64,000 nucleotides of DNA. Source: Carcharhinus amblyrhynchos. Its lineage: Eukaryota. Positions within the stretch are counted from its first letter, which is position 1, and each line of letters starts with the position of its first letter. Location of the stretch: NCBI GenBank assembly GCA_965287045.1, contig OZ336895.1, positions 23,870,001 to 23,934,000 of the forward strand, written 5' to 3'. The position numbers were made by a program. Positions 1 through 45,000 of this stretch are shown here, piece by piece.

Positions 1-3000
1 AGCTAGATTCAATGAAGGAGGCTGGGTGGGATTGTGGTCAGTGCAGATTCGATGGGTTGTATGGCCTTCTTCTGCACTGTAGGATTCTATGATTCTAAAT
101 ACTACATCCATTAGGCAATGATTACCAATGTAGAAACAATGTCACATCCTCTTGTTCACGTATCATAAACATTAACAAACAAATTGCAAACCATTCTTAC
201 AAATGCCATAACAATGAAAAAATGTTAAAAACAATAATATCAGAAAATAACATTTTCCTTCCATCAATTAAAGCAATATATGCTTCATTGAAACATAAAG
301 AAGGGTGGGGGAAGATACTCGCATGGAGGAGTTTGCAAAATGCAGCCTATTGTTCCTATCTAATTGATGTGCAATTCTTACTTGACGCTTTTTTGCTGTT
401 TCAACATTAGACTGTGATTTGGCTGCGTTTAATCAACCGAGTAATTGCTATTGTACCAAAGTGTGAACCTAATATCACAGCTTGTATTTTAATTCTTGCA
501 CATTTCATTCCAACTTGGTGCTTTCTCTCAGTAATGTTACTCTTCACTTTCTCAGCAACATCTGCAACCACGACTGCAAGTGCACACAGCACCACTGCAG
601 CAGTGAGCTCTACAACAACTGTGCCAACAAGTCCAACAGCAGAAACAGCGACAAGCAGCTCCACTCCTGCAACGACAGCCAAATCAACGACAATCACAAC
701 AACACAAGCCTCTACAACAAGCGGTGGGTGTCCAAATACAGGTTTATGTATACTATAATGTAATTCCTCTTAATTTAAATTTTGTGTTTCACTACGTAAC
801 AAAATAAATACAAAATATTGCAGTTTTATTGTTTTAATTAATATTAACGCAGGGAGAATCATTTGCCAGCTTCCACTTTAACTCTTCGACAACATGCCGA
901 TGCTGTTTATTGACGAATTTGTTAACAAACCTGAGCTAATTGTATATCAATTCATATTTACCAACATGGTATTGCAAGTTGCTGTTTTGCATCAAAAATG
1001 TCATCATTTATTTCCAATGAAACAGCAATTACATCCTTTTTTTTATCAACTCATGGCACTTTGTATTTAATGCACCTTTTTGAGTTTGGTATTGTAAGTT
1101 GCTGGTGTGACTCAGATTTGCCATTATTTCCTTCTCACTGAAACAGCAGAAACATCAGCCTCAACTGCACAGAGCACCACTGCAGCAGTGAGCTCTGCAT
1201 CAACTCCTACATCAACAAGTACAGCAGAATCAACAACTACAACAATCTCTACTCCAGCACCAACAGCTGAATCAACAATAATCACAACAACACAAGCCCC
1301 TACGACAAGTGGTGAGTAACCTGGTCCATTTTTCTGTTCCAATCGAATTCTGTGAGATTTCAAGCAGGATTATGATAACATACTAATATTTTAAAAACAC
1401 TCCTGATTTGCTGCTTACAGTTACAGGAGAATCTTTGGAAAATTCATCAGTTGTTTCGTATCTTTTGCAAATATTTTTGGCAAATTTATAATCTGTTCAA
1501 TTATCAGCAAATTATCAGTGTGTTTTTATTGTACGTTTCAGAGTAAGATATTCCAATTTGTGGGTTTACCTCATAGAAATCATTAAATATTTTCACTGCA
1601 GCAACAGAAACCTCAACTGCCAGTAGCAGCACTGCAATATCAGCCTCTTCATCAACTCCTGCAACAACAAGTACATCAGGAGCAACAACAACAGAACGTT
1701 CCACTCCAGCTTCAACAAGCATCTCAACATCAACACTCACTACAACAAGTGGTGAGTATCATTGTAAAACTAATGTTCCAATCTAATTCATGTTTAAATA
1801 TCCTCTGACTTTTTTTGCCTTTCAACATTTGACACAATTAATCAGCTGAGTAACTTGTATTGTAACTAAGTGTTTAACAGAAGACAGCATTTTGTATTTC
1901 AATCAGATTGTCTGTGCATTTTCTCCAACTTGGCTCTTTCTCTCAGTAATGTCATTCTTCACTTTCTCAGCAACATCTCCAACCATGACTGTAAGTGCAC
2001 AGAGCACCACTGCAGCAGTGAGCTCTACATCAACAATAATGTCATCAAGTCCAACAGCAGAAACAACAACAAGCAGCTCCACTCCTGCATCGACAGCTGA
2101 ATCCACGACAATCACAACAACACAAGCTCCTACGACAAGTGGTGAGTATCCAAATACTGAAAAATGGTGTTCCAATGAAATTGCTCTCAATTTAAATCAT
2201 GTGATAATCTACTTAATAGAATAAGCAGAAAATATTGCAGTTTTATTGTGTATATACAGATTAATGAAGGGGGCAAATCATTTTCCATTTTCACATTCTG
2301 CAATGTGTCTGCTACAACATGACAATGTCATATTTTCTGTGAATTTGTTAACATGTCAGGGAGATTTGTATATTTATGCACATTTTCGAGTTTGGTATTG
2401 TAAGTTGCTGGTGTGACTCAGATTTGCCATTATTTGCCTCTCACTAAAATAGCAGAAACATCAACGTCAACTGCACAGAGCACCACTGCAGCAGTGAGCT
2501 CTACATCAGCAGCAATGTCTACAAGTCCAACAACAGAAACAACAATAAGCAGCTCCACTCCTGCATCAACAGCTGAATCAACGACTATCACAACAACACA
2601 AGCGTCTCCAACAAGTGGTGAGTGTTCAAATCCAGGTTTATCTGATGCTTTCATGCAATTCCCCTAATTTTAAATTTTGTGTTTCACTACACAACAAAAT
2701 AAACACAAAATATTGCAGTTTTATTGTTTAAATTAATATTAATACAGGTAGAATCATTTGCCAGCTTCTGTTTTAAGTCTTCTACAACATGCCGGTGCTA
2801 TTTATTGACGAATTTGTTAACAAACCTGAGCTACTTGTATATCAATTCATATTTACCAACATGGTATTGCAAGTTGCTGCTTTGCATCAAAAATGTCAGA
2901 ATTTATTTCCAATGAAACAGCAATTACATCCATTTTTTATGAACTCATGGCACTTTGTATTTAATGCACATTATTGTGTTTAGTACTGTAACTTACTGGT

Positions 3001-42000: not shown

Positions 42001-45000
42001 AACAGCACAATCAGCAGCAAGCAGCTCCACTCCAACAGCGACAACAGAATCAACGACAATCACAACTGCACCAATTATTACAAGTGATTATCCAAGTAAA
42101 ATTTGACCTGTTATATCAATGTAATTGCTTTATATTTAAAGCAGGATCATGATTACACACTGAAGTTAGATTCATTTGTTTTTTTTACATCCATAGTAAG
42201 AGAGACAGGAGTTGATGTGTTCTATAGGAAGACCTCATGCATCTAGTTGATGGATGCACTGGCTGGGTGCCAAAGGAAATGGAACATTTGGGGGCTGCCT
42301 ACCATTAGCACTGGGTTAGTTGGGCTGTGGAAGCAGTGGGCCAACACATCTCAATATAGGGTGGTCCAGTCATTCTCTGAGTTGGGGGAAGATAAGTTCA
42401 TAAGGGCCTTTGTCTCAATGAGGGTAGTCAACACAACAGGGGCACTAGTTGGATTTGTAGAACTTGGAAGGGGACAGGATTGTATCATGTCATTTCTAGG
42501 GCATTTTGAAAGTGGGTTCTTAATGGTTTATGCTCCAACTTGTCCAGTTTCTGATACTCAGTGTACTTGAGTGCTCATCTAGAAAGATCACTCTTAATAA
42601 GTTGTCATCCTTATTTCGATGGATCTAAGTGTTCTAATCCTATTTTGCTTTGTAACCCTTCCTTTTATAGTTGAACCCACCATTGTTCCTGTAACTAACA
42701 ATCCAGATCAAGAAACGCAAAAGACAAAATTTAATGTAACTTTCACCGTGCTCACACTGCCATTCAATCCAAGTCTAGAAAATAAAACTTCCCCATCGTA
42801 CATGGATAAATCAAGCAACATTCTTGATGAGGTAATCATGATATCTAAGTGAATAGGAACACAAGTGTTAAATTTCATTACATTTCTTGTAATAAAATGT
42901 TGCATTTTAATTTTCTGCAGCTCAATAAACTGTATGCCAACAGCAAAGTAAACTCAACCTTTGTGAAATGTCATTCTGTCTCTTTCAGGTAAGCAAATAT
43001 ATCTTACAATGGAAGTCCTAATTAAGATGGATCCACAACTTTCTTAGCTTCAATTGACTTGTATTTAGTTACATAAAAAACTAATTACATAAATAAATTC
43101 CTGCTGTCGTTTATTATTGAGATAATTCTTTATGTACATTGTTGTAACCCAGACATACCCAAACATCTCAACTTTCCTGTAAGCCATTCATTTGATGTGT
43201 GGTCATGGGAATTGAGTTCCATCGCAGGCTTCCTGCTATTGAATAATCTTAATTTGAAAAGTACAGAATCGTGTACAATCCTGGCTGTCTTTCCAAATGT
43301 CATGCAACGCAATTCCGGTAAAACAAGTACTCATGCAGTTGATTTGAGAAATCAATTCACCAGTCAGATTATATTAGTGCTGTCAGATCTTCAGTATTTT
43401 ACAACAAATTAACCAGCTGCTATTTGTATGTGGCAGACCTGCAAGTGATGGTAACAGTACGGTTGAAGCATTCTGTGATTTCATAAAGAGTGCCAGTGCC
43501 CAGCAAGTTGATAAAGTTCTACTTTATCATGAATTCCAAAACAACACAAACGGCATCACCACTTTGGGATCATATTCACTGGACAGCAACAGCCTCTTTG
43601 TAGATGGTATATATTCACTTCCATTTAATAATTTAGTAACTGGTTAAACCATTTTGATAGACACTTTCCTGTTGTACAATGATCCTACCACCATCGTTCT
43701 AACAAATGATCCTCTATCTTACTGATCTCCTGGCTCACCCTTACTCCTAGTTCTTAACCATTCCTGTGCTAGTCCCTTTTCTCATTCCTTATCTGCTGAC
43801 TCACTCCTAATTGACCAATTCTCATTCCCGATGTTGCCTCTTACTTGCTCCCACTCTAGTGATGCTGTTGACATTATTTTGCTGGCTCTTGTTCACCCAT
43901 TCCTGAACGTCTAACTAATTTATACCCTGATCATCCGCCTCACATTCCTGACCCACTGTGTCTTATTCATTCCTGGTCTGTTCATTTACCTTCGTTGAAG
44001 AGCTCTAATGCACTCATCCCTCAGCTTCTGGCTCCTGTTCAACACCTTTTATTGAAACTTTATTTTTAGGAGGAATTCTGCATGTTTGACTCCATTTTCA
44101 TAATTTCAAACCTTCAATTTCTGATTAAATGTGGAACATCTTATCTTTTCACATGTGTGCTATTCTGGTAACAGCATTTATTTTAAGCTAATAATTCTAA
44201 CTCATCAGAATGTGCTTGAACAAGCTTAATTCATCTTTTCCAAATATATTTGTTTTGCAGGTTACCATGAATCAGTAGTTTTAACAAGTAAGTATATTAA
44301 TTGATCTCTCTATTGTTCTTTTAATATTTCTAGATGTGGATCAGTTTCACGTAAGATCTTGCAACATGTTGACATGATACTGAGATCATATCAGGAAGAA
44401 TTCCTCTGTGTGTTAGGCAAATCGTAAACATATTCTTTGGAGATATGGTTAGGCTTCCATTACAATAAGTAGTCAACAGATACTCCGCATTTAGGTACTG
44501 AACCCTACGAGGGCATTGATAACCATAAACAGCCATTGGATAGGTCCATGATTATGTATGGCAAAGTACAACTCTCACTCCTTGAAATTTAAAGCAGTTT
44601 TATTCTGATTCTTTTCAATTCAAAGCTTTAAAGTTAAAGTTTATTTGTTAGTCACAAGTAAGGCTTACATTAACACTGCAATGAAGTAACTATGAAATTC
44701 CCTGAGTCGCTACATTCCGGTGCTTGTTTGGGTAAATGCAACTAACCAGTACATCTTTTAGACTGTGGGAGGCAACCAGAGCACCCAGAGGAAGCCCACA
44801 CAGACAGTGGGAGAATGTGCAAACTCAGCACAGACAATGACACAAGCCAGGAATCGAACCTGAGTCCCTAGCGCTACGAGGCAGCAGTGCTAATCAATGT
44901 GCCACTATGCCGCCCATTGCAGTGTTTCAACCAAATCAGGAAATAGCCACAAGATATCACAGTTCTACTTTGCTGCTCATGATAATGTGGTGAAGAATCA

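What the first reader, a model, noticed from the sequence alone, without database searches (positions are those of the whole stretch)
556..42095. Mucin PTS domain built from about 89 interchangeable, frame-neutral cassette exons
Seen: about 89 exons by manual count, roughly 14 kb of coding sequence or 4,500-5,000 aa. Every exon I measured is phase 1-1 with length divisible by 3, and most end ACAAGTG|GT. Known: most mammalian mucins put PTS repeats in one or a few giant exons, and multi-exon PTS regions are the less common design. Inference: any subset of exons can be skipped without frameshift, so splicing could tune the length of the glycosylated stalk per tissue or cell. This is the best candidate for an undescribed system here.
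Basis: partly seen in the sequence, partly recalled or inferred. Interest (0 to 1): 0.8.

Follow-up and report, generated by a model that had tools for sequence, protein, structure and literature searches.

The report
Shark MUC16-like mucin, 89-exon stalk
This is the sugar-coated stalk of a shark cell-surface mucin related to MUC16, written as 89 short repeated exons instead of a few giant ones, a rare gene design that has been described before in chicken, zebrafish and frog mucins.

Summary
On the + strand, 556-42083 carries 89 Ser/Thr-rich exon-like blocks. All have AG/GT sites, are phase 1-1 and have lengths divisible by 3. They total 14,223-14,301 nt (4,741-4,767 aa), and 75 of 89 end ACAAGTG|GT.

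They look like real coding exons:
- Only one frame is open in all 89.
- Gap blocks between copies are multiples of 3 in exons (15 of 15) but not in intron flanks (15 of 62).
- No dead exon copies were found.

The array is a higher-order tandem repeat of four exon types, A(B)CD, in units of about 1.3 or 1.9 kb.

Downstream, 42.6-63.9 kb holds six tandem SEA domains of four exons each. These match solved Mucin-16 SEA structures and shark proteins named "mucin-16-like", so the gene is a MUC16-type membrane mucin.

The interpretation as an undescribed system is not supported. Lang et al. 2006 described a multi-exon PTS domain with one repeat per exon in chicken and zebrafish Muc13, and proposed length control by alternative splicing. 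Xenopus Otogl is also multi-exonic.

Symmetric phase is what tandem exon duplication requires, so it does not show regulated skipping. That question needs transcript data and stays open. What is new here is the scale and the gene family.

The parts
556..723 (+). PTS exon 1, type A, 168 nt, phase 1-1
1147..1311 (+). PTS exon 2, type C, 165 nt, phase 1-1
1602..1751 (+). PTS exon 3, type D, 150 nt, phase 1-1
1971..2141 (+). PTS exon 4, type A, 171 nt, phase 1-1
2453..2617 (+). PTS exon 5, type B, 165 nt, phase 1-1
3044..3205 (+). PTS exon 6, type C, 162 nt, phase 1-1
3498..3647 (+). PTS exon 7, type D, 150 nt, phase 1-1
3868..4032 (+). PTS exon 8, type A, 165 nt, phase 1-1
4344..4505 (+). PTS exon 9, type B, 162 nt, phase 1-1
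4930..5073 (+). PTS exon 10, type C, 144 nt, phase 1-1
5367..5516 (+). PTS exon 11, type D, 150 nt, phase 1-1
5737..5907 (+). PTS exon 12, type A, 171 nt, phase 1-1
6219..6380 (+). PTS exon 13, type B, 162 nt, phase 1-1
6802..6966 (+). PTS exon 14, type C, 165 nt, phase 1-1
7257..7403 (+). PTS exon 15, type D, 147 nt, phase 1-1
7619..7786 (+). PTS exon 16, type A, 168 nt, phase 1-1
8196..8360 (+). PTS exon 17, type C, 165 nt, phase 1-1
8651..8800 (+). PTS exon 18, type D, 150 nt, phase 1-1
9018..9182 (+). PTS exon 19, type A, 165 nt, phase 1-1
9492..9656 (+). PTS exon 20, type C, 165 nt, phase 1-1
9948..10097 (+). PTS exon 21, type D, 150 nt, phase 1-1
10317..10484 (+). PTS exon 22, type A, 168 nt, phase 1-1
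10900..11064 (+). PTS exon 23, type C, 165 nt, phase 1-1
11355..11504 (+). PTS exon 24, type D, 150 nt, phase 1-1
11726..11896 (+). PTS exon 25, type A, 171 nt, phase 1-1
12206..12370 (+). PTS exon 26, type B, 165 nt, phase 1-1
12775..12939 (+). PTS exon 27, type C, 165 nt, phase 1-1
13228..13377 (+). PTS exon 28, type D, 150 nt, phase 1-1
13597..13764 (+). PTS exon 29, type A, 168 nt, phase 1-1
14190..14354 (+). PTS exon 30, type C, 165 nt, phase 1-1
14643..14792 (+). PTS exon 31, type D, 150 nt, phase 1-1
15012..15179 (+). PTS exon 32, type A, 168 nt, phase 1-1
15490..15651 (+). PTS exon 33, type B, 162 nt, phase 1-1
16618..16782 (+). PTS exon 34, type C, 165 nt, phase 1-1
17076..17225 (+). 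PTS exon 35, type D, 150 nt, phase 1-1
17442..17612 (+). PTS exon 36, type A, 171 nt, phase 1-1
17923..18084 (+). PTS exon 37, type B, 162 nt, phase 1-1
18497..18781 (+). PTS exon 38, type C, 285 nt, phase 1-1 (C and D fused, former intron read through)
19001..19168 (+). PTS exon 39, type A, 168 nt, phase 1-1
19479..19640 (+). PTS exon 40, type B, 162 nt, phase 1-1
20067..20231 (+). PTS exon 41, type C, 165 nt, phase 1-1
20521..20670 (+). PTS exon 42, type D, 150 nt, phase 1-1
20891..21061 (+). PTS exon 43, type A, 171 nt, phase 1-1
21373..21534 (+). PTS exon 44, type B, 162 nt, phase 1-1
21962..22126 (+). PTS exon 45, type C, 165 nt, phase 1-1
22409..22558 (+). PTS exon 46, type D, 150 nt, phase 1-1
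22780..22947 (+). PTS exon 47, type A, 168 nt, phase 1-1
23265..23429 (+). PTS exon 48, type B, 165 nt, phase 1-1
23743..23907 (+). PTS exon 49, type C, 165 nt, phase 1-1
24231..24374 (+). PTS exon 50, type D, 144 nt, phase 1-1
24595..24759 (+). PTS exon 51, type A, 165 nt, phase 1-1
25059..25223 (+). PTS exon 52, type B, 165 nt, phase 1-1
25519..25683 (+). PTS exon 53, type C, 165 nt, phase 1-1
25991..26131 (+). PTS exon 54, type D, 141 nt, phase 1-1
26329..26496 (+). PTS exon 55, type A, 168 nt, phase 1-1
26807..26971 (+). PTS exon 56, type B, 165 nt, phase 1-1
27263..27424 (+). PTS exon 57, type C, 162 nt, phase 1-1
27725..27868 (+). PTS exon 58, type D, 144 nt, phase 1-1
28066..28236 (+). 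PTS exon 59, type A, 171 nt, phase 1-1
28545..28688 (+). PTS exon 60, type D, 144 nt, phase 1-1
28886..29053 (+). PTS exon 61, type A, 168 nt, phase 1-1
29359..29523 (+). PTS exon 62, type B, 165 nt, phase 1-1
29835..29999 (+). PTS exon 63, type C, 165 nt, phase 1-1
30302..30445 (+). PTS exon 64, type D, 144 nt, phase 1-1
30660..30827 (+). PTS exon 65, type A, 168 nt, phase 1-1
31138..31302 (+). PTS exon 66, type C, 165 nt, phase 1-1
31606..31737 (+). PTS exon 67, type D, 132 nt, phase 1-1
31953..32120 (+). PTS exon 68, type A, 168 nt, phase 1-1
32433..32594 (+). PTS exon 69, type C, 162 nt, phase 1-1
32903..33046 (+). PTS exon 70, type D, 144 nt, phase 1-1
33244..33414 (+). PTS exon 71, type A, 171 nt, phase 1-1
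33726..33887 (+). PTS exon 72, type C, 162 nt, phase 1-1
34195..34335 (+). PTS exon 73, type D, 141 nt, phase 1-1
34556..34723 (+). PTS exon 74, type A, 168 nt, phase 1-1
35020..35175 (+). PTS exon 75, type C, 156 nt, phase 1-1 (diverged 3-prime copy)
35407..35550 (+). PTS exon 76, type D, 144 nt, phase 1-1 (diverged 3-prime copy)
35771..35935 (+). PTS exon 77, type A, 165 nt, phase 1-1 (diverged 3-prime copy)
36235..36393 (+). PTS exon 78, type C, 159 nt, phase 1-1 (diverged 3-prime copy)
36707..36850 (+). PTS exon 79, type D, 144 nt, phase 1-1 (diverged 3-prime copy)
37065..37229 (+). PTS exon 80, type A, 165 nt, phase 1-1 (diverged 3-prime copy)
37529..37690 (+). PTS exon 81, type C, 162 nt, phase 1-1 (diverged 3-prime copy)
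37951..38094 (+). PTS exon 82, type D, 144 nt, phase 1-1 (diverged 3-prime copy)
38307..38474 (+). PTS exon 83, type A, 168 nt, phase 1-1 (diverged 3-prime copy)
38946..39068 (+). PTS exon 84, type C, 123 nt, phase 1-1 (diverged 3-prime copy)
39647..39811 (+). PTS exon 85, type C, 165 nt, phase 1-1 (diverged 3-prime copy)
40305..40391 (+). PTS exon 86, type D, 87 nt, phase 1-1 (diverged 3-prime copy)
40716..40868 (+). PTS exon 87, type A, 153 nt, phase 1-1 (diverged 3-prime copy)
41473..41607 (+). PTS exon 88, type C, 135 nt, phase 1-1 (diverged 3-prime copy)
41919..42083 (+). PTS exon 89, type A, 165 nt, phase 1-1 (diverged 3-prime copy)
42671..42831 (+). SEA1 exon a, 161 nt, phase 1-0
42921..42988 (+). 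SEA1 exon b, 68 nt, phase 0-2
43437..43606 (+). SEA1 exon c, 170 nt, phase 2-1
44261..44287 (+). SEA1 exon d, 27 nt, phase 1-1
46292..46449 (+). SEA2 exon a, 158 nt, phase 1-0
46575..46642 (+). SEA2 exon b, 68 nt, phase 0-2
47731..47903 (+). SEA2 exon c, 173 nt, phase 2-1
48075..48101 (+). SEA2 exon d, 27 nt, phase 1-1
48658..48815 (+). SEA3 exon a, 158 nt, phase 1-0
48960..49027 (+). SEA3 exon b, 68 nt, phase 0-2
49406..49578 (+). SEA3 exon c, 173 nt, phase 2-1
49750..49776 (+). SEA3 exon d, 27 nt, phase 1-1
50363..50517 (+). SEA4 exon a, 155 nt, phase 1-0
50610..50677 (+). SEA4 exon b, 68 nt, phase 0-2
54566..54735 (+). SEA4 exon c, 170 nt, phase 2-1
54912..54938 (+). SEA4 exon d, 27 nt, phase 1-1
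55898..56046 (+). SEA5 exon a, 149 nt, phase 1-0
56138..56205 (+). SEA5 exon b, 68 nt, phase 0-2
57724..57893 (+). SEA5 exon c, 170 nt, phase 2-1
58081..58107 (+). SEA5 exon d, 27 nt, phase 1-1
59282..59430 (+). SEA6 exon a, 149 nt, phase 1-0
59522..59589 (+). SEA6 exon b, 68 nt, phase 0-2
63399..63568 (+). SEA6 exon c, 170 nt, phase 2-1
63870..63896 (+). SEA6 exon d, 27 nt, phase 1-1

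Best explanation
The region is the extracellular, heavily O-glycosylated stalk (PTS domain) of a shark MUC16-type transmembrane mucin. It is encoded by at least 89 short exons (median 165 nt) separated by short introns (median 300 nt), and is followed by tandem SEA domains of four exons each.

Origin (inferred). The array grew by repeated tandem duplication of exon-plus-intron blocks, through unequal recombination in introns. The unit is three or four exon types, A(B)CD, about 1.3 or 1.9 kb long, and larger blocks were duplicated later.

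Why phase 1-1 (inferred). Only exons that begin and end in the same phase can be duplicated inside a gene without breaking the frame. The uniform phase 1-1 is therefore the condition for, and a legacy of, this mode of growth. The SEA modules share it.

What selection keeps (shown). It keeps the frame open, the splice sites intact and the composition Ser/Thr-rich, and cares little about which residue sits where.

Function (inferred from general knowledge of mucins). The product is a long, glycan-covered rod standing on the cell surface, of the order of a micrometre for about 4,700 residues.

Splicing (inferred, untested). The most likely default is that most exons are spliced in, in order, across short introns. 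The design also lets stalk length change without a frameshift, both by copy-number change in the genome and by exon skipping in the transcript. Whether skipping is used or regulated is not shown.
For: Coding status.
- All 89 exons have AG and GT, and all donors are in phase 1.
- Only one frame is open in 89 of 89. The other frames are stopped in 68 and 79 of 89.
- Gap blocks between copies are multiples of 3 in 15 of 15 cases in exons, against 15 of 62 in intron flanks.
- Exon identity is 0.90-0.93 against 0.77-0.81 in the flanks.
- The 40 nt before each acceptor are conserved at 0.83-0.97.
- blastn with one exon of each type gave 285 hits. All fall on the 89 exons, all 89 are hit, and there are no minus-strand hits, so no dead copies were found.

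Duplication origin.
- 158 collinear self-matches of 1.2 kb or more were found. The 40 longest listed are 79-92% identical. Their offsets include 1,305 and 1,891 nt, and multi-kb offsets up to about 24 kb.
- The type order is A(B)CD: 27 units, 12 of them with B.

Weak protein-level constraint. dN/dS is 0.58-0.77.

Gene identity.
- Three exons tile Pfam SEA profile positions 2-37/39, 36-59 and 61-106.
- Six such units lie in the window.
- SEA exon c hits only Mucin-16 chains or the mouse homologue in the PDB: 4 of 4 hits, best E = 1.2e-10.
- 10 of 10 database hits are shark 'mucin-16-like' proteins, 73-79% identical.
- The exon peptides tile residues 597-649, 650-671 and 673-728, then 738-791, 792-813 and 816-870 of the Heptranchias protein P0004. 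This confirms the predicted junctions.
- The PTS89 to SEA1a junction reads T-I-EPTIVPVT, against TVEPPIVPVT in P0004.

Shared design. The P0004 PTS has a 53-57 aa period and a 223 aa super-period, like ABCD here.
Against: - No transcript evidence was available, so inclusion of any PTS exon in mRNA is inferred from sequence conservation only.
- The search with one PTS exon peptide found no annotated protein at E <= 0.001. No database model therefore confirms the PTS exon junctions themselves. Only the last junction, PTS89 to SEA1a, has ortholog support.
- Four-fold degenerate sites differ less between copies (p = 0.087) than intron sites do (0.141). They differ about as much as codon positions 1 and 2 (0.075, 0.081). 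This points to a constraint, or a homogenising process, acting on exon DNA or RNA rather than on the protein. The explanation above does not predict it. It would also fit dense splicing signals, as expected for exons whose inclusion is controlled.
- The left boundary is unknown. The window starts inside an intron, and bases 1-428 do not match the array.
Confidence: 0.7

Rival explanations
1. Regulated cassette-exon system. Cells choose how many and which PTS exons to include, so the height of the glycosylated stalk is tuned per tissue or cell state, as titin does with its PEVK exons (comparison recalled, not from a call).
For: - All 89 exons are symmetric, and no junction stop arises in any of 3,916 ordered exon pairs.
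- Synonymous sites are more conserved than introns (0.087 against 0.141). This would fit dense exonic splicing signals.
- 33 of 89 acceptors are tandem CAG|CAG.
- The idea was proposed in print for chicken Muc13 (PMC1552070).
- Human MUC16 transcripts lacking whole SEA repeats are reported (PMC10829539 and PMC12563253, passages).
Against: - Symmetric phase is required for tandem exon duplication anyway, so it does not discriminate.
- Donors are uniformly strong (65 of 89 are GTG|GTGAGT).
- Introns are short (median 300 nt). From general knowledge, short introns favour orderly splicing.
- No transcript data were seen.
- No paper in the searched library holds 'exon skipping' together with the mucin, PTS and glycocalyx terms.
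Confidence: 0.17
2. Partly dead array. Only a subset of the 89 blocks is spliced into mRNA. The rest are relics of duplication that have not yet decayed.
For: - Copies are 79-92% identical in the listed self-matches, so some could be young enough to look intact by chance.
- The 3-prime copies (exons 75-89) are more diverged, with nearest-neighbour identity 0.51-0.93.
- Exon 38 is a fusion that reads through former intron sequence.
- Exon 89 has lost the consensus donor and relies on a GT one codon upstream.
Against: - 89 of 89 keep AG, GT and an open frame.
- 15 of 15 exon gap blocks are multiples of 3, against 15 of 62 in flanks.
- No exon-like fragment lies outside the 89.
- At 8-20% divergence, unconstrained copies would be expected to carry frameshifts as often as the introns do.
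Confidence: 0.08
3. Not a gene: a non-coding satellite or an assembly artefact that happens to be open in one frame.
For: The sequence is low in complexity, and other frames are sometimes open too (21 and 10 of 89 exons have no stop in the two other frames).
Against: - The array runs in frame and in phase into SEA exons whose junctions match annotated shark proteins.
- The indel and conservation contrast between exons and introns argues for coding selection.
- The window has no N, and copies differ enough to be assembled (one identical pair only).
Confidence: 0.02

Closest known systems
Chicken (and zebrafish) Muc13 multi-exon PTS domain (Lang, Hansson & Samuelsson 2006, PMC1552070; abstract, section 8 and conclusion read)
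   Same: - It is a membrane mucin with a SEA domain.
- The PTS domain is split over many exons, each encoding one repeat unit.
- The authors already proposed that PTS length could be set by alternative splicing.
   Different: - Chicken Muc13 has at least 12 repeats of 20 aa and one SEA domain. Here there are 89 exons of about 47-57 aa.
- Here there are four exon types in a higher-order unit, and six or more SEA domains.
- The family is different (MUC16-type).
Human MUC16 / CA125 (PMC3431878 table 1 and passages; PMC10829539 and PMC12563253 passages)
   Same: - A large N-terminal Ser/Thr-rich domain is followed by tandem SEA repeats, each split over several exons.
- The SEA sequence is similar.
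- The two SEA cysteines are 20 residues apart, as in the human 'cysteine loop' at aa 59 and 79.
- Transcripts lacking whole repeats are reported in human.
   Different: - The human amino domain is given as 12,068 aa in 9 exons. Here about 4,750 aa lie in 89 exons.
- The human repeat is 156 aa in 5 exons. Here it is 138-142 aa in 4 exons.
- Orthology to human MUC16 was not tested by tree or synteny.
Xenopus tropicalis Otogl (Dubaissi et al. 2018, PMC5789918, discussion passage read). The alternative name MucXS is recalled, not from a call.
   Same: Its central mucin domain is multi-exonic. The authors note this as unlike mammalian mucins and cite chicken Muc13 as the precedent.
   Different: It is a secreted gel-forming mucin with Cys-rich domains, not a SEA-repeat membrane mucin. 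I did not see its exon count or phases.
Shark 'mucin-16-like' proteins annotated by NCBI (P0001-P0010)
   Same: - The order is the same: PTS, then SEA1, then SEA repeats.
- SEA exons are 58-84% identical to P0001 and P0004.
- The PTS period is 53-57 aa with a four-unit super-period in Heptranchias.
- A C-terminal SEA, a membrane span and a tail are present in those proteins.
   Different: - Those models hold at most about 600 aa of PTS. The window holds about 4,750 aa.
- Their gene structures could not be read here, because no shark genome is in the collections.
Arrays of symmetric repeated exons in other long proteins: titin PEVK (differentially spliced) and fibrillar collagen 54-bp exons (constitutive). 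Both are recalled, not from a call.
   Same: Many short exons of the same phase encode a repetitive, extended polypeptide whose length scales with exon number.
   Different: The proteins and the chemistry are unrelated. They show that the same gene design goes with regulated splicing in one case and constitutive splicing in the other.

Membership tests
MUC16-type (multi-SEA) transmembrane mucin | Several SEA domains in tandem | tested here: met
   Six units lie in 42.6-63.9 kb. Exons a, b and c tile Pfam SEA profile positions 2-37/39, 36-59 and 61-106. Each piece alone scores below the gathering score of 26.4 bits (15-24.5 bits), as expected for parts. The exons were not joined for a whole-domain score.
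MUC16-type (multi-SEA) transmembrane mucin | SEA sequence closest to MUC16 SEA | tested here: met
   Exon c of SEA2 gave 4 of 4 PDB hits to Mucin-16 or the mouse homologue (8gkl_E 1.2e-10, 7sa9_A, 8vm1_A, 1ivz_A). Exon a gave no PDB hit at E <= 1. All 10 database hits are named mucin-16-like.
MUC16-type (multi-SEA) transmembrane mucin | Large Ser/Thr-rich domain N-terminal to the SEA repeats | tested here: met
   There are 89 exons. 2,875 of 4,652 internal codons are S or T. The array lies directly upstream of SEA1 and joins it in phase.
MUC16-type (multi-SEA) transmembrane mucin | Conserved cysteine pair within the SEA repeat | tested here: met
   There is one Cys in exon b and one in exon c in all six units, 20 residues apart counted across the junction. 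The human loop is given as aa 59 and 79 (PMC3431878 table 1).
MUC16-type (multi-SEA) transmembrane mucin | Membrane span, cytoplasmic tail and a last SEA with a cleavage motif | not testable with these tools
   The window ends inside the SEA array. The shark relatives P0001, P0002, P0004 and P0005 do end with such a region.
MUC16-type (multi-SEA) transmembrane mucin | Orthology to human MUC16 by tree or synteny | not tested
   No flanking genes lie in the window and no vertebrate genomes are in the collections. The name rests on similarity and architecture.
Multi-exon PTS mucin domain (chicken Muc13 design) | [quoted passage not shown] | tested here: met
   89 repeat units are each bounded by AG and GT. 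This rests on sequence and conservation only, without transcripts.
Multi-exon PTS mucin domain (chicken Muc13 design) | Transcript support for the exon structure | not testable with these tools
   No shark cDNA or reads were available. One search found no protein model carrying these exons.
Regulated cassette-exon array (titin PEVK-like) | All exons symmetric, so that skipping keeps the frame | tested here: met
   89 of 89 are phase 1-1, and 0 junction stops arise in 3,916 ordered pairs.
Regulated cassette-exon array (titin PEVK-like) | Different exon sets included in different tissues | not testable with these tools
   This needs long-read cDNA.

The most novel reading that the evidence does not exclude
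The shark sets the height of its cell-surface glycocalyx by choosing how many of about 90 frame-neutral PTS exons, and perhaps whole SEA modules, to splice into its MUC16-like mRNA, in a tissue- or state-specific way. On this reading, the excess conservation of synonymous sites over introns marks the exonic signals that control inclusion. This would be the first demonstrated case of the mechanism proposed for chicken Muc13 in 2006.
Probability: 0.15. Interest if true: 0.65.

Novelty: new member of a known kind. Interest (0 to 1): 0.33.

Why it matters
Mucin stalk length matters for barrier function and for how far a cell keeps microbes and other cells at a distance. In mammals, length varies between individuals through repeat-number polymorphism inside giant exons.

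A stalk written as about 90 separate, frame-neutral exons could in principle also vary within one animal. The exons carry private differences (only one identical pair), so long-read cDNA could score inclusion exon by exon. That would make a hypothesis from 2006 directly testable in a very large natural example.

The locus also shows that the multi-exon PTS design occurs in the MUC16 family of cartilaginous fish. This supports the earlier suggestion that the design may be ancestral for vertebrate membrane mucins (PMC1552070, section 8).

As it stands, however, the locus is an ordinary, apparently functional mucin gene of a kind that annotation pipelines already name.

Tried and rejected
- **PTS exon search.** One PTS exon peptide (exon 29) was searched against the 5.8-billion-protein set, longer proteins only. 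1,849 candidates shared words and none scored E <= 0.001. This gave no same-species model and no indirect transcript evidence.
- **Isoform check.** I asked whether paired shark proteins from one contig were splice isoforms that skip modules. P0007 and P0008 are 77% identical, and P0001 and P0009 are 66% identical over their best alignments. They are paralogues, not isoforms.
- **RNA genes.** Rfam (gathering thresholds) and ARAGORN over the whole window found 0 RNA families and 0 tRNAs.
- **Tandem Repeats Finder.** It reports only two arrays of period about 477, because its longest period is 500. The higher-order structure came from a self-comparison with blastn instead.
- **SEA exon a against the PDB.** No hit at E <= 1.
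- **Biased intron comparison.** My first exon-versus-intron comparison used flanks aligned by exon type and gave intron p = 0.21-0.25. I judged this inflated, because flanks of one exon type come from different unit contexts. I repeated it on long collinear matches, which gave 0.141.
- **Literature.** (mucin, shark, MUC16, PTS) returned mainly antibody-drug reviews in the 15 rows listed and no shark mucin gene paper. One search (exon duplication, phase 1) returned nothing relevant in its 12 rows. One search listed 12 of 28 papers, none holding 'exon skipping'.
- **Satellite or artefact reading.** Rejected.
- **Not done.** The whole-domain SEA score and any full-length homology search therefore remain open. 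Supplements of the cited papers were not opened. Supplementary Documents S2-S4 of PMC10829539 may bear on which human MUC16 repeats are skipped.

Full report
**What is there**

The window has no N. On the + strand, between 556 and 42083, a mechanical scan finds 89 open blocks with a Ser/Thr-rich core. A stricter first pass found 66 on the + strand and none on the - strand.

Each block has a GT donor picked freely by match to the donor consensus, and all 89 donors lie in phase 1. The acceptor picked freely by a crude pyrimidine score was phase 1 in 77 of 89. In the other 12 the score preferred an AG further upstream.

At the position homologous to the other copies, every block has a phase-1 AG. 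With these sites all 89 lengths are multiples of 3. Since the acceptor was then chosen under that constraint, this count is partly by construction.

The total is 14,301 nt. It falls to 14,223 nt (4,741 aa) after three acceptors (exons 25, 50, 89) are moved to the homologous site. Other figures:
- Median exon is 165 nt and median intron is 300 nt.
- Coding fraction of the span is 0.34.
- ACAAGTG|GT ends 75 of 89 exons.

**Are they real exons?**

- **Frame.** Only the phase-1 frame is free of stops in all 89. The two other frames are stopped in 68 and 79 of 89. The encoded residues are T 35.7%, S 25.9%, A 13.9% and P 6.7%, with no Cys.
- **Conservation within types.** Copies were aligned within each type. 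This used 79 of the 89 exons, leaving out the seven 3-prime-most exons and exons of unusual length. Exon columns are 0.90-0.93 identical and the 120-nt intron flanks 0.77-0.81.
- **Indels.** Distinct gap blocks are multiples of 3 in 15 of 15 cases inside exons, but in only 15 of 62 cases in the flanks.
- **Acceptor regions.** The 40 nt before each acceptor are conserved at 0.83-0.97, as expected for branch point and pyrimidine tract.
- **No dead copies.** blastn with one exon of each type gives 285 hits. All fall on the 89 exons, with none elsewhere and none on the minus strand.

This pattern is what purifying selection on frame and splice sites produces. It argues against a satellite or a largely decayed array.

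**Organisation of the array**

The exons fall into four types with distinct acceptor contexts and lengths:
- A: 165-171 nt.
- B: 162-165 nt.
- C: mostly 165 nt.
- D: 141-150 nt.

The types were set by motif rules, with three hand corrections. The nearest neighbour of an exon is of the same type in 85 of 89 cases under the uncorrected labels.

The order is A(B)CD. There are 27 units and 12 of them have B. Self-comparison gives 158 collinear matches of 1.2 kb or more. The 40 longest listed are 79-92% identical, with offsets that include 1,305 and 1,891 nt and multi-kb offsets up to about 24 kb. The array therefore grew by duplication of exon-plus-intron blocks at several scales.

The 3-prime copies (exons 75-89) are the most diverged. 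Only one pair of exons is identical in DNA (24 and 31), and the median nearest-neighbour identity is 94.7%. Exons are thus alike in frame and composition but individually recognisable.

**What gene it is**

Downstream of the array, open frames carry pieces of the SEA domain. Three exons tile Pfam SEA profile positions 2-37/39, 36-59 and 61-106. Each piece scores below the gathering score on its own, as parts must.

Six such units lie between 42,671 and 63,896. Each has a fourth micro-exon of 27 nt. All 24 exons have AG/GT sites, with these phases:
- a: 1 to 0.
- b: 0 to 2.
- c: 2 to 1.
- d: 1 to 1.

Each unit is 414-426 nt and symmetric in phase 1, like the PTS exons.

- Exon c matches only Mucin-16 SEA chains or the mouse homologue among solved structures (4 of 4 hits, best E = 1.2e-10). 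Exon a has no PDB hit.
- In the large protein set, 10 of 10 hits to exon c are proteins that NCBI names mucin-16-like. They come from seven shark species and are 73-79% identical. The window is therefore from a cartilaginous fish and was not taken for human.
- The single-exon peptides tile adjoining residues of the Heptranchias protein: 597-649, 650-671 and 673-728, then 738-791, 792-813 and 816-870. This confirms the predicted junctions, including the nine residues supplied by exon d.
- The last PTS exon joins SEA1 in phase 1 to read T-I-EPTIVPVT, where the relatives read TVEPPIVPVT. This fixes the Ser/Thr frame independently of my splice-site choice.
- The relatives end with a last SEA-like region, a membrane span and a short tail. 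That part lies beyond the window.

All searches were made exon by exon.

**How it most likely works**

- **Shown:** an open, Ser/Thr-rich frame kept across 89 symmetric exons that run into MUC16-type SEA repeats.
- **Inferred from general knowledge of mucins:** the product is densely O-glycosylated and extended, of the order of a micrometre for about 4,700 residues, and forms part of the cell-surface glycocalyx.
- **Inferred from the anatomy:** growth was by unequal recombination between introns. Only same-phase exons survive such duplication, which explains the uniform phase 1-1 without any appeal to splicing control.

The design does allow length change without a frameshift, in two ways. One is copy-number change in the genome. 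The other is exon skipping, since no junction stop arises in any of 3,916 ordered exon pairs. Strong uniform donors (65 of 89 are GTG|GTGAGT) and short introns make orderly inclusion the default expectation, but this is an inference.

**A point the explanation does not cover**

Between copies, dN/dS is 0.58-0.77, so residue identity is weakly constrained. Yet in 158 long collinear matches, four-fold degenerate sites differ less (0.087) than intron sites (0.141). They differ about as much as codon positions 1 and 2 (0.075, 0.081).

An earlier estimate from type-wise flank alignments gave a larger gap, but I consider it inflated. Either way the exons are conserved as nucleotide sequence rather than as protein. 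Possible causes:
- Gene conversion that favours exons, which share sequence across types (A to B identity 0.83, B to C 0.79).
- Exonic splicing signals.
- Codon or composition constraints.

I could not separate these.

**Comparison with what is known**

The design and the hypothesis are both in print. Lang, Hansson and Samuelsson (2006, PMC1552070; abstract, section 8 and conclusion read) reported that the PTS domain of chicken Muc13 is encoded by multiple exons, each one repeat unit. They noted the same for a zebrafish Muc13, suggested the design may be ancestral, and proposed that PTS length could be regulated by splicing within an individual.

Dubaissi et al. (2018, PMC5789918, discussion passage) note a multi-exonic mucin domain in Xenopus Otogl.

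For human MUC16, a review table gives an amino domain of 12,068 aa in 9 exons and 5 exons per 156-aa repeat (PMC3431878). Transcripts lacking whole repeats are reported (PMC10829539 and PMC12563253, passages).

The Heptranchias protein has a PTS period of 53-57 aa and a 223-aa super-period. This matches the four-exon unit here and suggests the design is shared among sharks, though I could not read its gene.

My searches found no paper on shark mucin gene structure (15 of 452 rows seen). They found none that demonstrates regulated skipping of PTS exons (one paper, 12 of 28 rows seen). The library does not hold most subscription journals.

**Verdict**

The locus is a large new example, in the MUC16 family of a shark, of a known and uncommon mucin gene design. 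The claim of an undescribed system is not supported. The splicing-tuning idea is old, plausible and still untested, and this array would be a good place to test it.

Noticed in passing
window 18497-18781: PTS exon 38 is a C exon and a D exon fused. The end of C, its donor and most of the intron are deleted. The remaining 3-prime intron sequence, with the old D acceptor inside it, is read through in frame, giving a 285-nt open exon.
   Followed up: partly
window 556-42083, exon versus intron columns: Four-fold degenerate sites differ less between repeat copies (0.087) than intron sites do (0.141), and about as much as codon positions 1 and 2 (0.075, 0.081). The exons are conserved as DNA or RNA rather than as protein. 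The cause is unresolved.
   Followed up: partly
window, 33 of the 89 PTS acceptors (types B and C): Tandem CAG|CAG acceptors (NAGNAG type). Use of the second AG would drop one codon and keep the frame.
   Followed up: no
window 51797-52495 (+), with inverted arms 52653-52865 and 53402-53614: A reverse-transcriptase fragment (Pfam RVT_1, E = 7.6e-12) of a retroelement lies inside the long intron between SEA4 exons b and c. A 213-nt inverted repeat lies next to it.
   Followed up: partly
window 1-428; also 15-96 versus 41121-41202 (-): The first 428 bases do not match the introns of the array. One piece recurs in reverse in the intron before exon 88 and looks like a dispersed repeat. It is therefore unknown whether more PTS exons lie upstream of the window.
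   Followed up: partly
window 44735-44909 and 61713-61887: A 175-nt inverted pair, 82% complementary, lies in introns of the SEA region. It is probably two copies of a short interspersed element. ARAGORN and Rfam report nothing there.
   Followed up: no
window 46292-48101 versus 48658-49776, and 55898-58107 versus 59282-63896: SEA units 2/3 and 5/6 are recent tandem duplicates, with repeat families 92-97% and 83-95% identical. The SEA array grows by the same block duplication as the PTS array.
   Followed up: partly
proteins P0007/P0008 (Heterodontus francisci) and P0001/P0009 (Rhincodon typus): Two distinct mucin-16-like proteins per species are listed with the same longest-contig length. They are 77% and 66% identical, so at least two paralogous MUC16-like genes exist in these sharks.
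   Followed up: partly
window 15652-16617: The intron between PTS exons 33 and 34 is 966 nt, about twice the usual B-to-C intron. No exon-like sequence lies inside it. The nature of the extra sequence was not examined.
   Followed up: no
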